Assembly: GCA_964016885.1 (NCBI GenBank)
Contig: CAXHJY010000726.1
Location: forward strand, 1-64,000
DNA length: 64,000 bases
From: Eledone cirrhosa
Lineage: Eukaryota
Reading direction: 5' to 3'
The notes under the pieces are model-generated. The model saw nothing but the letters and a program-made list of their open reading frames with translations. It searched no databases and was not told where the DNA came from. Position numbers and translations under genes: made by a program. Position 1 is the stretch's first letter; each line of letters starts with the position of its first letter. Below, in pieces: positions 4,918-63,922 of the stretch.

Positions 4918-5020
4918 ATATATATATATATATATATATATATATATATATATATATATATATATATATATATATATATATATATATATATATATATATA
5001 TATATATATATATATATATA
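4918..5020. repeat. (TA)n microsatellite
   Basis: Direct reading. Confidence 0.99.
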
Positions 5021-5667
5021 AATAAATTAGACAATTATCAAAGTTGTGTTCAAATCATTTAATAGCTGACAATCGTTTCTTCCAAACTCTCATTTGGAGT
5101 CATCGGAGCATTATCAATGTTTGTACATGTAATTAACCTCCTATATAGATACATATATATTGATGTTGTGAGCAACAGTTTCGTATTTACAGGGTGGAAT
5201 GGATGTGACATATATTTTACGAGAATTGTACAAAAATTCAAATTCAAATTAAAAGCACAGAGTGGAATACATGCAACAGATAATACAAGAGAATAGTCTA
5301 ATAATTAAAGAGGCATTGTGAAAGGAGCTTTTATAAAGAAAGAGTTCATTAACAATACATATGCAGGTGTGTAGAAAGTGCACATGCGTTAGTCATATAT
5401 ATGAGAAGGAAATAAGCAAAGTTATTATGCATATATAGATGAATAAATACTGTATTTTAAGCAAAAATGTAATCTATTAAAATCTAAGGTGGACGTAGTA
5501 TGTTGATAGTGTTTGAATTTGTGTGTGTTGAGGAGAATAAAGTTATTGCTGTCTCTTCCATTACATATGTTGAATTATATTTTAGTTAATGTTTATATTG
5601 AATGTTTAAGTTAAAGCAATGGATTGTAAATTAGTCTTATTGTATTCATATACATGGACTATAGTTG
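5019..5667 (-). repeat. Inverted pseudo-LTR of the adjacent Penelope-like element
   Basis: Reverse complement of 7928-8580, about 97% identical by eye. ORFs 5059-5247(-) and 8352-8540(+) are near-identical. Confidence 0.95.
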
Positions 5668-7218
5668 CACTTCTCCTTATAAACTCTAAAAAATTTAATA
5701 TAGAAAAAACAATTACACAAAATTTTCAAAAACTTCAACTTAAGTATCACCTTAGATAAAAAACACTAAAAACGTCAACTTCCTTGATGCTACTCTTTGC
5801 CTAGACTCTAAAATATACACACCCTATCATAAACCTAACGAAAAACTAATTCATGTGAATACCAACTCTAACCACCCTAAATCCATATTAAACTCTATTA
5901 CTAAAGGAATATCTAATATAATCTCTAATCTATCATATAATGAAACCATATTTAACAATAATTCACAATACTATAATGAGGCCTTAGCTAAATCAGGACA
6001 TAAGAATGAGATTGAATTTCTACCTATAAAATCACATAGTTACAACATTATTTCTCATAATATGGCCATGAGGAAAAATAATAAAAACACTAGCCACTAT
6101 AACTCTAGGCCGAAGGATAATACCAAACTTAACTCGCACCAAATTAAACACCACAATAATAATATAAACAGGGATATAATTACCTCAAAAACCAATACTA
6201 AAAAAAAAATAGAAGGAGAAATAATACATTCTTCAATCCCCCTTTCAATCTAAACGTCTCTACCAACTTGCCTAAGGCTTTCTTCTCAATCTTAGAAAAA
6301 AACTTCCTGTCCGGCCACAAGTACCATAACCTTATCAATAAAAATACAATTAAAATATAGTACTCCACCACACCTAACATAGCATACCATATAGCTAGTA
6401 GTAATAAAAGGAAGATTAATAATTATTTCCAACTAATTAAAACACAACAGGAGGTAAACTTAGTACCTGTAAACAATAGTAATAATAATAGTAATAATGA
6501 TAATAGCACTAATGAAATCAATAACAATACGAATGACAGACATCATTACCCTAGTGCTATCCCTAGCAACCAGAATTCTTCACAACATAGGACCCGGCAA
6601 GCTAACATCCAGAATAAATGTAACTGTAGAACTAATAGAACTTGCTCCTTAGGTAATAATTGCTTAACCAAAGACATCATCTACTCATGCACCGTCAACT
6701 CAAACAACTCTTCTAAAACATATATCGGCTCTACTTCAATCAGCTATAATCTTTTCGAAAATAGACCTCCTTAATAGAAAACCAGAGACAGTTTCCTCGT
6801 GCCAACACCGATTCCGTCACTCGTTCAATAACTTTAAACCTAGCTGTTAGTATAACAATGTCAGATTAGAATTCCCCACCACCATTAACACTTCACATCT
6901 AGGACTTATCAGCCCCCACAACTACACATTCTTTGATCAGCTCTTTCCTCTACACAACTCCTATGTACCTCTAACCTTATACTCTGCAATAACTGTTGGA
7001 ATTAAACATAAAGTTACCACCTTTTGGTATAACTAATATAGCTTAATTATATTATATAAAGTTATGGATATTTAATATGTAGAGACATTTAATGTAATAT
7101 GTAATAATAAACTATATATACATTTATATAATTAAATACTTAAATTAATAACATGTATATAAGGGATCTACATTTAAAACCATGTAATAATAATAAAGTA
7201 TATATACATTTATAATTA

Positions 7219-7581
7219 AATTTCTAATTTCAAACTCGCGCACCGTTTCAAAAACATACTTACATGTTTACATTTATAATTTGCTTGTTTATCATTCACT
7301 TGCTAAGTTCATAGCTTCTAATTCGAATGGAAGGAGACGGGATGTGTATTGGTGTAATGGTAGCACAGTGGTCTGGATAACCCAAGATGTGGGTTCGACT
7401 CCCATGTACGGCAACACTCATCTTTTTCCATTTCTCCGAGGGTTATAAACCCCACTATCAGGCTAGAAATTTCTTTAGTCTAAAATACGGTGAAAGCTTA
7501 TAATTTCTAATTTCTAATTTCAAACTCGCGCACCGTTTCAAAAACATACTTACATGTTTACATTTATAATTTGCTTGTTTA
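7219..7581 (+). repeat. 73-bp perfect direct repeats (7219-7291, 7509-7581) flanking a tRNA-like insert
   Basis: AATTTCTAATTTCAAACTCGCGCACC...TTGCTTGTTTA occurs twice. Confidence 0.95.
7343..7413 (+). pseudogene. tRNA-like pseudogene or SINE head (D-arm resembles tRNA-Gln)
   Basis: A-box TGGTGTAATGG and T-arm GTGGG-TTCGACT-CCCAT. Acceptor stem (5/7) and anticodon stem (3/5) are imperfect. TTTTT lies 10 nt downstream. Confidence 0.7.
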
Positions 7582-61139: not shown

Positions 61140-62426
61140 TTGTCGCTTTAATACGTTCAGCAAGAGAGATATTTATACATGAATTAATTTCTCTTTGGAA
61201 GATTTCGTTGAGGGGAATTTTCAATTGTTTATACTTTTGATTATTATCATTATCGATAGTGTTTTCCCTAGCATTCGAGGTAGACTTAGATGGTACACGT
61301 GGTGTCAAGTTTCTTACAGGCATAGTTGTTTCAAGGCGCTGTTCGACTTTGCTGCTAGGAAGTCTAGTAGCATAGCGACCTATAGCACGTGTTGTTGATC
61401 CCCTGTTTGTTGTGGGAGACTTACAGTTAATAATATTTATCTTATTTTTACGTTCAACAAACGTCGATTGATGGCATAATTGTATGTATTTTTTTTCTTT
61501 TGTGGAGCGAGAGACTCCTCGTCTTCATTAAAACATCTCTCTTGGAGAAGGTCACTCTGATATAAAAACTGTGACTTCGTTTGCATCAAATTATGAAAAC
61601 AAGTTCTTTTTGTGCAAATATAATCGCTATTCAGAGAGTAGGATTGGCAAAGCCTTTGCATGATGTTGCTAAAATATATAATACCATCGGTAGGAGACAC
61701 TGCTCTTGGGTAGATATTAGAGACTACCTCTGTTATTAAATATATGCATGTGTATCAGCGATTGGAATATTGGAACATTCCCATTAAAACTTCCGCCTGA
61801 TATCGTTGTTTGGTACAGAATTGAAACATTATGAAGTCATAGGCCCAGTTGTTCTGCTGATGCAAACATTTCACAAAATCAATTGGAAAAACAATATCTA
61901 TGGGCAACAACTTCGAAGCCTATAGATTCTCTATCGAGATTATAAGTTAATATTTATAGCTATAAGAATTAGTGCACGTGGCTTTGTTAATAAATGTCAA
62001 GGGGGTAATTGAGAATAGCTAGCATTTTTAAGCAATGGAAATGATCATGCAAATATGCACATCGTAAATATAAGTTGTAAGCGGAACAGTAAAAACATGC
62101 AATACTTTTCTAAAGTTCAGCATTTTTATTATTTAAATTCCAACAATAGAGCTTTCTTTATAATTTTTTCGTTACAGGAAGGTTTCAAATAATCAAAAAG
62201 ACAAGAAGAAAGTAACTGAATCACTGGTATTGTCTTGGTGCAAACTAAAAAGCATTGTCACCTTGTTAGGCACTCGCTTGAATTCTGCAACGACTTAAAG
62301 TAAAGAGAAATTCACATACATACATACATGATGGCTGCCCCTTCGTTATCGAGTATAGCCATTACACAATAAAAAAAAAATATATAAAATAAATAAATAA
62401 ATAAAAACATATATATATACATATAT

Positions 62427-63389
62427 ATACATACATACATGGTGGCTGCCAACTCGTTTTCAAGTACGGCCACTACTTATATCCATGTAGGAGAACCCCT
62501 ACCGATGCGCTGAACGAGTGTGAATTTTTAGTCCAGCCAGCGACTTGCAAACTCTGGTACAAATACTAGACTTGTGACAATTATTGACACATAGTGCTGG
62601 GCCCATGGTACCATGTGACGACAAGTGCAGAGAGATCTCCAGATATAAAGCAATGCCTGTGCCGTGAAGCTTTTATAGTGAGAAAAGGCACTGCACAAAG
62701 CCAGTCCCACTCTCTTAACCAAGATGATATTTTCCAAAAAGAAGAACAAGTCAACATCATTGGATACCATCAGGGTTGCAGGTGTTATATCAGAGTTTTC
62801 CTTCTAGAATTCTGCCTTGACAAAGGCTAAGGGGTCATCTCTCCCGGTGATTTTGGATGGCCATTGACTCTTAAGAGTTCCTTTGCTCTTTGACAGGTTT
62901 TGTTTTTAGTCCTGCAGGATGTCCAAAGTCACCCTCCTCACCAAGAAACCTTGGTGGGGTTGTTAGTTTAGTCGCCAACGACCCGACCATGAGACAGGTT
63001 GTACTGGGATACATGTTACCAGTAGCACCAACTGGTGACCTGACATAAATACATACATACATACATACATACATACATACATACATACATACATACATAC
63101 ATACATACATACTTCACTATGACTATACCTTCAGATTTGTACTTATGAGCAGTTGAGCTCTAGTATATATTACTAACCGCTTCAATACAAATTTTAAGGA
63201 GCTGGGCTTCACAGAACCAGAAAGAGCACGGCTAGTTAGGAAGTTGCAAGTACAGTCGATTAATGGAACTAAAAATATATAAAACATTTAAGAAATTCGA
63301 CATTTAATAACTCCATGTACACATGTATAGACACAGACACAGATGCACGTGTACACATATACTCAAAACATAGATCCACACATGCAATA
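62427..63389. repeat. Inverted counterpart of 56413-57404 (RTE-derived element, (CATA)n and Dong 3' fragment)
   Basis: Direct alignment. Mirrored ORFs 56997/62594, 56696/62871 and 56339/63269. Confidence 0.95.
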
Positions 63390-63616
63390 TATATATATAT
63401 ATATATATATATATATATATATATATATATATATATATATAGACAGTTCAAGAGTAAACCAATCTTAAAGAGAGAGATGGAGATACGAGAGGAGAAGAGA
63501 GATTGGTGAAGGTATTAGAAGCCAAAAGCGTAAAGGCATGTGCTCAATGTGCAATATGCAGTGGGAAGCAGCTAGAGAACTGGGTTCATGCGGAGGTTAG
63601 GTGCACAGAGCTGGAA

Positions 63617-63922
63617 ATATTCATTAGTTAAGCAAATCAAGACCACAAATTCACATGGAAGACGTTAGTTAAAGAGTGTCAACATAGTTGCATTTTAATG
63701 TAAGGAATAAAGAGTGTCAACATTAATTGCAGTTTAATGTAAGGAATAATAATGTTGGACATTACTATTCCTTACTATTCCGGATATTATTATTCCTTAC
63801 ATTTAACTGCAATTAATGTTGACACTCTTTATTCCTTACATTAAAATGCAACTATGTTGACACTCTTTAACTAACGTCTTCCATGTGAATTTGTGGTCTT
63901 GATTTGCTTAACTAATGAATAT
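63617..63922. repeat. 137-bp foldback (63617-63753/63786-63922), each arm with an internal tandem duplication of about 38 bp
   Basis: About one mismatch between arms. The right arm ends at (TA)n. Confidence 0.95.

What the first reader, a model, noticed from the sequence alone, without database searches (positions are those of the whole stretch)
5019..63922. Systematic inverted duplications that terminate at (TA)n runs
Inverted duplications occur at 5019/7928 (650 bp), 11106, 12945, 32419, 35375 (272 bp), 47229, 47310, 50096, 51722, 52077, 56413 (1 kb) and 63617. In most, one arm ends exactly at a (TA)n tract (5020, 32560, 36030, 47297/47310, 51858, 53824, 63389, 63922). Inference: self-complementary (TA)n acts as a break or priming site, and Penelope reverse transcriptase or repair template switching copies neighbouring DNA in reverse. 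If transcribed, these arms would be long dsRNA substrates for ADAR, which is very active in coleoid cephalopods.
Basis: partly seen in the sequence, partly recalled or inferred. Interest (0 to 1): 0.72.

Follow-up and report, generated by a model that had tools for sequence, protein, structure and literature searches.

The report
Two-armed Penelope insertions in TA repeats
The mirror-image copies are real and end at TA repeats far more often than chance, but most are the known two-armed footprint of TA-seeking Penelope jumping genes copying themselves, and only a few copy neighbouring DNA, likely during repair of breaks in the TA repeat.

Summary
All 12 listed inverted pairs exist; 10 have an arm ending at (TA)n. 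In 28 fixed 50-kb blocks from this genome, 145 of 373 inverted pairs end at (TA)n (permutation mean 6.3), so the pattern is genome-wide.

The copied DNA is mostly not neighbouring DNA. Eight window cases (probably nine), and 115 of the 145 by BLAST class, are single insertions of Hydra-clade Penelope-like elements (PLEs) or of families ending the same way: (TA)n, tail, 3' end, inverted 5'-truncated second copy, (TA)n. One arm seems to stop at TA because the other carries a fixed-length tail before its own TA run. Craig et al. 2021 describe this anatomy, the TA preference and an octopus Hydra family. This scan found it before on other DNA of this genome.

Two window events (35375; about 455 bp of the '1 kb' pair) and a 53-bp filler (47377) do copy local DNA. 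Such events are rare, about 4-6 candidates in 1.4 Mb, and likely come from break repair.

Arm identities below 99% and contigs of two samples argue against chimeras; no long read was seen. Arm mismatches show no A-to-G excess; editing in RNA is untested.

The parts
5018..8717 (+). Class A. Hydra-type PLE insertion: 5'-truncated main copy 5668-8581 (+; RT C-terminus, CxCX5C linker and GIY-YIG at 5673-6847, long 3' UTR), 136-bp tail 8582-8717 ending at a TA-rich run, and inverted 5'-truncated second copy 5018-5667 (-) ending at (TA)n 4918-5020
   Evidence: 2328 candidates; L003 and L004 end in TA at the 8581 point; the tail occurs in other copies
11018..11208 (-). Class A, no ORF link found: family 3' end at TA 10946-11017, inverted piece 11151-11208 ending at TA 11209; a further copy at 11449-11492
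   Evidence: 72 hits; other copies show the same two-armed build in TA
12945..13244 (.). 31-bp inverted pair at 90%, no TA run at the ends; the interior matches an old repeat (77%); unresolved
32342..32557 (-). Class A. 3' end of the PLE family whose ORF remnant lies at 27458-28403 (-); tail about 80 bp; inverted piece 32500-32557 ending at TA 32558
   Evidence: (92 of 96 non-local hits end at TA)
35375..36117 (.). Class B foldback. Template 35375-35646 is part of an old repeat. The centre 35647-35758 is (TA)n with three copies of an 11-bp island. The inverted copy 35759-36030 ends in (TA)n 36030-36117. Single-copy DNA follows; no PLE was found on either side.
   Evidence: (99% local, at most 84% elsewhere among 40 scored)
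46987..47039 (+). Single-copy flank DNA that is the template of the filler at 47377-47429
   Evidence: (contig depth about 6)
47142..47294 (-). Class A. Young PLE 3' end (98-100% to other copies) between two TA runs, with a 26-bp inverted piece; tail about 86-94 bp
   Evidence: linked to RT + GIY-YIG ORF remnants in L031, L032, L034, L036
47317..47532 (+). Class A with captured flank: high-copy family end 47431-47532 whose tail 47500-47532 runs into TA 47533; inverted copy 47317-47380 at TA 47295-47316; between them a 53-bp inverted copy of flank 46987-47039
   Evidence: (contig loose ends turn to TA at 47499)
49810..50388 (.). Probable old class A: family copy 49810-50292 starting at TA 49804, with an inverted piece 50297-50388 at its other end; the arm end is not at TA
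   Evidence: 80-88% family; several other copies carry adjacent inverted pieces
51630..51855 (-). Class A, same family as 47142; inverted piece 51812-51855 ending at TA 51856
51917..53821 (-). Class A. PLE with endonuclease C-terminus at 53314-53553 (-), 3' UTR down to TA 51916, tail about 160 bp, and inverted copy 53564-53821 ending at TA 53822
56413..56867 (+). Class B template: old LINE fragment, (GTAT)n, and the first 80 or so bases of a 600-bp repeat
   Evidence: (at most 82% elsewhere over this part among 40 scored; one locus at 90%)
62437..63389 (-). Class B copy from about 62963 to 63389, ending at TA 63387, grafted onto an independent copy (62437-63042) of the same 600-bp repeat, which belongs to another subfamily beyond its first 85 or so bases
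   Evidence: two private variants at element positions 79-80 shared with the left copy, in 0 of 14 other copies
63442..63918 (-). Class A, no ORF link found: family 3' end at TA 63387-63441, tail about 175 bp, inverted copy 63786-63918 ending at TA 63919
   Evidence: (1920 candidates; the inverted piece stops at the same point in 4 other scored copies)

Best explanation
Most of these inverted pairs are single insertions of TA-targeting Hydra-clade Penelope-like retroelements or their dependants, likely made when both ends of a cut (TA)n tract prime reverse transcription at two fixed points of the element RNA, while a small minority are copies of adjacent DNA likely made by foldback or template-switch repair of a break in (TA)n. 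Class A, shown: both ends lie in (TA)n, the two 3' ends point outward, one arm has a family-specific tail, and the tail-less arm joins TA at a recurrent site, usually through 3-7 matching TA bases. Class A, inferred: the GIY-YIG endonuclease cuts both strands of the self-complementary tract, each 3' end anneals to the RNA by those few bases, and the two truncated cDNAs are joined head to head. Class B, shown: local identity far above any other copy, one end in (TA)n, and repeated short islands in the TA tract. Class B, inferred: a broken (TA)n end snaps back or invades a nearby inverted repeat, copies 50-450 bp and rejoins TA by microhomology (polymerase theta- or MMBIR-like).
For: Arms are high-copy families that end at TA elsewhere. 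[quoted passage not shown] Of 145 TA-ended events in the blocks, 53 match ORF-linked PLE sequence and 62 more match TA-terminating families. In 92 of 123 one-sided events the partner arm reaches its own TA run within 20-330 bp (25% of random positions lie within 300 bp), with lengths clustered by family (19 of 53 at exactly 80 bp). TA microhomology of 3 bases or more occurs at 35 of 55 distinct junctions against 6% by chance, and an RCTC motif in the first 12 tail bases at 32 of 55 against 4.8%. Published: inverted 5'-truncated copy, one-sided tail and Hydra TA preference (PMC8557442); a PLE protein cleaves and extends both strands and starts at two RNA sites that define the tail (PMC11167929). 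Class B; foldback inversions at breaks (PMC11724301, abstract); TA repeats break and are repaired by Pol theta (PMC13645644, passages).
Against: 62 of the 115 class A events have no ORF link in my sample; they are filed by anatomy only. The PLE library also holds other repeats: of 63 arms that hit it, 10 hit antisense and 7 tied. Tails here (about 40-180 bp) are mostly longer than the published 30-40 bp. Frangieh et al. found initiation without homology to the target, unlike the microhomology seen here, though for another clade. The 55 junctions include relatives, so they are not independent. 20 of 55 have under 3 bases of microhomology. Two-sided priming is not shown by any search; a single cDNA that folds back would leave a similar product. 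Class B lengths (272 and about 455 bp) exceed the 5-34 bp yeast foldbacks. No read spans a junction.
Confidence: 0.8

Rival explanations
1. One reading: Penelope RT or repair routinely copies neighbouring genomic DNA in reverse from a (TA)n priming site.
For: True local copies exist at 35375, 56413 and 47377. The 47377 filler sits inside a PLE junction. A few more candidates occur in the blocks.
Against: 115 of 145 TA-ended events are element sequence in both arms. Only 1 of 81 class A junctions holds a long unique flank filler; the other 3 hits are two tandem copies of one junction and a single 16-mer. No PLE was found beside 35375.
Confidence: 0.12
2. The class A second arm is made at DNA level: one cDNA is inserted and its free end, or the opposite TA end, folds back and copies the new DNA, so no second priming on RNA is needed.
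For: Arms are often closer to each other than to other copies (97% against at most 95%). Short junction fillers built from local pieces occur (63753-63786). TA microhomology fits DNA annealing as well as RNA annealing.
Against: The second arm ends at one fixed point per family in unrelated loci, next to a shared RCTC motif. Single-armed copies also end at that internal point (L003, L004; loose ends at 47499), so it works as a start site in its own right. In vitro two-strand extension is published.
Confidence: 0.2
3. The pairs are terminal inverted repeats of DNA transposons (Tc1/mariner MITEs, foldback elements) inserted at TA.
For: 22 of 145 events have TA at both outer ends. Two viewed (C2_350:11229, C11_15:17356) look like Tc1/mariner ends by recalled motif.
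Against: None of the 12 listed window cases is symmetric. The arms are offset by a tail, the inner junction varies between copies, and RT plus GIY-YIG lie upstream.
Confidence: 0.04
4. Assembly or library foldback chimeras on a small unplaced contig.
For: The window is on a 75.9-kb contig. 24 of 95 TA-ended arms of 60 bp or more are 100% identical. No contig spans a junction, and the contigs show one mosaic arm at the three sites where the 35375 arms differ.
Against: 55 of 95 arms are under 99% identical. The pattern recurs in 26 of 28 chromosome blocks. Ends recur at family-specific sites. For 35375, sample S1 shows arm depth 7.5-8.4 against 5.7-6.3 on the left flank and 2.9-5.5 on the right, and sample S2 has a 272-bp contig at depth 2 that equals the shared arm; either sample may be the assembly's source.
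Confidence: 0.04

Closest known systems
Hydra clade of endonuclease-bearing Penelope-like elements, including Hydra-1_Obim of Octopus bimaculoides (Craig et al. 2021, PMC8557442; passages, section 11 and supplement passages read)
   Same: C-terminal GIY-YIG, CxCX5C linker, CxxC and CxH around the conserved E and N, DKT, GLYRDD, insertion into (TA)n, inverted 5'-truncated copy next to the 5' end, tail at one end only.
   Different: RWR rather than RWK in the four copies where the motif was seen. Tails are mostly 40-180 bp rather than 30-40 bp. Many families; many insertions are only 150-500 bp of 3' end. Canonical hammerheads were found in few copies.
Poseidon PLE of Anolis in vitro (Frangieh et al. 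2024, PMC11167929; main text read, parts 1-2 of 4)
   Same: AT-rich cleavage, both strands cleaved and extended, two RT start sites whose interval is the tail.
   Different: Another clade. Initiation there is reported without homology to the target; here 35 of 55 junctions share 3 or more TA bases with it.
Foldback and templated inverted insertions at double-strand breaks (yeast, PMC11724301, abstract only); Pol theta repair of breaks at TA repeats (human cells, PMC13645644, passages)
   Same: Class B: inverted copy of DNA next to a break, short microhomology, fragile TA tract.
   Different: Fixed in an animal genome and much longer (53-455 bp against mostly 5-34 bp), with repeated 11-bp islands in the TA tract. 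The enzyme is unknown.
LINE-1 twin priming (recalled; only a search-listing mention seen)
   Same: Both target ends prime on one RNA, the second internally by microhomology.
   Different: L1 gives an inversion of non-overlapping parts. Here both cDNAs copy overlapping sequence, so the result is an inverted duplication.

Membership tests
Hydra-clade PLE | [quoted passage not shown] | tested here: met
   Translations of L025, L026, L031, L032, L034, L036 and window 5673-6847, 27458-28403. Pfam gave no hit on the four window fragments scanned; the assignment rests on motifs and on by-eye match to the published alignment.
Hydra-clade PLE | CxCX5C linker; CxxC and CxH flanking the conserved E and N | tested here: met
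   Linker motif visible in 15 of 22 long segments and in window 5018 (only the first four regex hits per segment were printed); CxxC..E in 19 of 22.
Hydra-clade PLE | No CCHH motif (no pair of cysteines between GIY and YIG) | tested here: met
   One cysteine only in the window elements and in L025, L026, L032, L034; read by eye.
Hydra-clade PLE | DKT in place of DKG; RWK motif | tested here: inconclusive
   DKT in RT context in 8 of 22 segments, RWR in 4 of 22, RWK in none; most copies are 5'-truncated before these motifs.
Hydra-clade PLE | Insertion into (TA)n | tested here: met
Hydra-clade PLE | Canonical hammerhead ribozyme | tested here: inconclusive
   Rfam: no hammerhead at E <= 1 in the window. 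Pattern search: one canonical core and three long-stem variants in 54 library entries, one at window 32226.
Hydra-clade PLE | Placement in the Hydra clade on an RT tree | not tested
   No tree with reference sequences was built.
PLE insertion structure | Inverted 5'-truncated copy at the 5' end, tail at one end only | tested here: met
   92 of 123 one-sided events; tail lengths cluster by family; tails are longer than published.
Tc1/mariner or MITE | Symmetric fixed terminal inverted repeats with TA on both sides | tested here: not met
   All ten TA-ended window cases are asymmetric; the feature fits 2 of the 14 block events viewed.
Foldback or template-switch repair product (class B) | Copy is of local origin | tested here: met
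   99% local against at most 84%; 277 of 278 against at most 90%; 53 of 53 from single-copy DNA. Only 40 candidates were scored per search.
Foldback or template-switch repair product (class B) | Dependence on Pol theta, Pol delta or another host polymerase | not testable with these tools
   Needs genetics or reconstitution.
ADAR substrate | Both arms in one transcript, with A-to-I editing in RNA | not testable with these tools
   No RNA reads were laid. The DNA-level proxy shows no A/G excess between arms: 55 A/G against 64 C/T on the sense strand.

The most novel reading that the evidence does not exclude
(TA)n tracts in this genome are a germ-line palindrome factory with two routes. Hydra PLEs prime both cut ends by annealing TA to fixed, RCTC-marked RNA sites, leaving some 10^5 two-armed insertions. 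The same cuts, when no RNA is engaged, are healed by reiterative priming and snap-back synthesis, possibly by the telomerase-related PLE RT itself acting on DNA, and copy hundreds of bases of host flank at about 10^4 sites.
Probability: 0.2. Interest if true: 0.6.

Novelty: new member of a known kind. Interest (0 to 1): 0.28.

Why it matters
How PLEs form their inverted structures is still called undefined (PMC8557442). This genome offers a very large natural series, at least 54 clean two-armed events per Mb in my sample (76 in 1.4 Mb). It names the substrate for a test: a (TA)n duplex, two fixed RNA start sites, 3-7 bases of TA microhomology and an RCTC motif. In practice these structures can be mistaken for MITEs or chimeras in annotation. 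The rarer flank copies would be a heritable record of break repair at TA repeats. The class A anatomy itself is published and was noted before in this scan, so the surprise is modest.

Tried and rejected
1. Run search on 35150-36400: no RNA holder listed. 2. Contigs laid on 34950-37500 and 46900-47530: TA repeats are skipped and no piece spans a junction. The filler 47384-47427 has no cover of its own; one of three S1 runs breaks exactly at 47039, the end of the template, and two run through, so this is inconclusive. 3. Pfam found nothing on the four PLE fragments. Rfam found no hammerhead; its miRNA hits are hairpin and TA artefacts below the gathering score. 4. ADAR footprint between arms: none in the 89 events examined (pairs differing by more than 30 bases in length skipped); no event has an A-to-G cluster. 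5. Flank capture at class A junctions: 4 hits of 81, one convincing; control 0 of 125. 6. The '1 kb duplication' as one event was rejected: beyond about 85 bases the two 600-bp repeats belong to different subfamilies. 7. My first reading of 5018 as RT switching onto host DNA was rejected once the arm proved to be the element's own 3' UTR. 8. Of 30 block events not assigned to class A, I viewed 14. Most looked like rarer class A families, two like DNA transposons, one like a tandem array; 16 were not viewed. Of 47 unique-arm events in the blocks I viewed 13 and six. 9. Literature: the search for Penelope with template switching onto flanking DNA and the search with twin priming each listed one unrelated paper; the 'TA repeats' search gave none. 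The library lacks most subscription journals, so older Penelope papers were not seen. bioRxiv supplements are closed and may bear on the ORF-less families. 10. Contig C753 ends at 75,869, so six requested stretches did not exist.
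Full report
Setting. The window is bases 1-64,000 of a 75,869-bp contig (C753) in a 3.0-Gb assembly. ORFs of 100 aa or more that could be assigned are transposon remnants. I did not test whether the window lies in an intron.

Observation. All 12 listed pairs are present, and 10 have an arm ending at (TA)n; 12945 and 50096 do not. I fetched 28 blocks of 50 kb at fixed round positions on 16 chromosomes, masked simple repeats, dropped satellites and called inverted pairs of at least 30 bp and 90% identity within 5 kb. 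145 of 373 have an outer end within 4 bp of (TA)>=4, against a permutation mean of 6.3 (max 14). The window gives 9 of 20 against 0.26. Masking forces alignments to stop at TA, which can inflate the cases with TA on both arms (22), but not the 123 one-sided cases. CA and GA runs show little of this: 4 and 3 one-sided of 118 close pairs, against 64 for TA. Direct repeats touch TA less often.

What the arms are. The 650-bp arm has 2328 candidate loci. Two fetched copies continue upstream into an ORF and end in (TA)n at exactly the arm's end. So 5018-8717 is one insertion: a 5'-truncated element on the + strand with RT and GIY-YIG remnants, a 136-bp tail that also occurs in other copies, and an inverted shorter copy whose 3' end meets the TA run at 5020. 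The same build holds at 32419 (family ORF at 27458-28403), at 47229 and 51722 (family linked to ORF remnants in L031, L032, L034, L036), at 52077 (endonuclease remnant at 53314-53553), and, without an ORF link, at 11106, 47310 and 63617. 50096 looks like an older case. In the blocks, 53 of the 145 events match ORF-linked PLE sequence, 62 match families whose other copies end at TA, and 30 match neither. The library was crude: 10 of 63 arms hit it antisense and 7 tied. In 92 of 123 one-sided events the partner arm reaches its own TA run 20-330 bp further out, with lengths clustered by family. One arm therefore 'ends at TA' because the other arm has a tail.

Family. The proteins show GLYRDD, DKT, a CxCX5C linker, YIG without a cysteine pair, CxxC..E and CxH. 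These define the Hydra clade, nearly all families of which insert into (TA)n (PMC8557442, section 11). The paper's supplement lists Hydra-1_Obim from Octopus bimaculoides with (TA)n preference, and its alignment matches my translations by eye. The same paper describes the inverted 5'-truncated copy and the one-sided tail (passages). RWK was seen only as RWR, hammerheads were found in few copies, and no tree was built.

Mechanism of class A. A purified Poseidon PLE cleaves and extends both strands of AT-rich DNA and starts at two RNA sites whose interval is the tail (PMC11167929). Here the tail-less arm joins TA at a recurrent site. Among 89 events, 78 had a clean TA junction, giving 55 distinct contexts; 35 share 3 or more alternating TA bases with the target (6% by chance) and 32 have RCTC in the first 12 tail bases (4.8%). 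These contexts include relatives, so the counts are not independent. I infer that both ends of a cut, self-complementary (TA)n anneal to the RNA at two fixed sites, and that the two truncated cDNAs are joined head to head. A DNA-level foldback of one cDNA is the main rival; single-armed copies that end at the internal site argue against it.

Class B. Three window features copy local DNA. (1) 35375: the arms differ at 3 of 272 sites, while the best of 40 scored copies elsewhere is 84%. The centre is (TA)n with an 11-bp island three times over. The old repeat's normal continuation is missing and single-copy DNA follows. (2) 56413/63389: the first 278 bp differ at one site (at most 90% elsewhere). 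The adjoining 600-bp repeats share two private variants at positions 79-80 (0 of 14 other copies) but belong to different subfamilies beyond that. The copied tract is about 455 bp, and a TA-side end probably invaded the inverted repeat 5 kb away. (3) 47377-47429 is a 53-bp inverted copy of single-copy flank inside a PLE junction; it is the only convincing case in 81 junctions. In the blocks I found about 4-6 independent candidates: C13_15 (one event present twice, again with repeated 11-bp islands in TA), C4_350:9994, C1_150:34091, C28_50:48155, and weaker C20_15:14129 and C23_10:3710 (not all candidates were viewed). That is about 3-4 per Mb against at least 54 per Mb for class A (76 events). 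Foldback inversions at breaks (PMC11724301, abstract) and Pol theta repair of broken TA repeats (PMC13645644, passages) make host repair the likelier source, about 0.6 in my judgement. PLE-made cuts or the PLE RT are not excluded.

Artefact. 55 of 95 TA-ended arms of 60 bp or more are under 99% identical and 24 are 100% identical. The pattern is in 26 of 28 blocks and uses family-specific ends. For 35375, a contig in sample S2 equals the 272-bp shared arm at depth 2, and in sample S1 the arm is deeper than either flank. Either sample may be the assembly's source, the contigs merge the two arms, and no read spans a junction. The support is indirect.

ADAR. Between arms, on the element's sense strand, A/G mismatches number 55 and C/T 64, with no A-to-G cluster. 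That speaks only to edits fixed in DNA. Editing in RNA was not tested; any transcript through a two-armed insertion would form a hairpin. The search on cephalopod ADAR and inverted repeats listed four general papers (listing only).

Earlier notes. Before looking I had reached the Hydra reading. The scan's notes on other pieces of this genome report the same two-armed PLE insertions, fixed start sites and a motif beside them; none lies near this window. A 2026 preprint links animal retrozymes to PLEs (10.64898/2026.07.22.740005, passages), which may cover some ORF-less families.

Verdict. Its bulk is a known kind of element with a known anatomy; its residue is a rarer, repair-like class. Interest 0.28.

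Noticed in passing
window 7229-7578: A 350-bp secondary insertion in the PLE 3' UTR, absent from L003 and L004, with a tRNA-like head (Rfam tRNA 7346-7410, 29.6 bits, at the cut-off) and a 60-bp identical direct repeat (7232-7291/7522-7581).
   Followed up: no
window 35647-35758; G000:C13 blocks at 15,020,764 and 15,034,080: Foldback centres hold the same 11-bp island two or three times, each separated by (TA)n, which suggests repeated rounds of priming and release.
   Followed up: partly
class A junctions, window and blocks: An RCTC motif lies in the first 12 bases of the tail at 32 of 55 distinct junctions from many families, against 4.8% by chance.
   Followed up: partly
window 15814-19969 (+): Frameshifted LINE with an ORF1-like frame, an endonuclease (PF03372) and an RT (PF00078); L1/Tx1-like is a recalled label.
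   Followed up: no
window 57689-60573 (-): Broken LINE with a weak RT hit and a restriction-like endonuclease end; R4/Dong-like is a recalled label.
   Followed up: no
window 56788-57390 and 62437-63042: A 600-bp young repeat (9371 candidates, 93-98%) that sits in (GTAT)n tracts and forms tandems at other loci.
   Followed up: partly
window 1928-2268, 38200-38425, 41890-42094, 44655-44866, 45700-46483, 52815-53242, 55880-56268: Many copies of one SINE-like repeat in both orientations make most of the remaining inverted matches; they would also pair if co-transcribed.
   Followed up: no
window 32200-32325 and about 4820-4917: A further family abuts the same TA runs from the left, with a hammerhead-like core at 32226 and a variant read by eye near 4822. 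TA tracts collect insertions from both sides.
   Followed up: no
G000:C2 block at 350,011,229 and C11 block at 15,017,356: Symmetric terminal inverted repeats (200 bp and 34 bp) with TA on both sides, Tc1/mariner-like by recalled end motif.
   Followed up: no
window 40711-41140: An old 430-bp palindrome at about 69% identity, not at TA.
   Followed up: no
window 36171-37311: In sample S1 this single-copy stretch has contig depth 2.9-5.5 against about 6 left of the foldback, a weak hint of heterozygosity.
   Followed up: no
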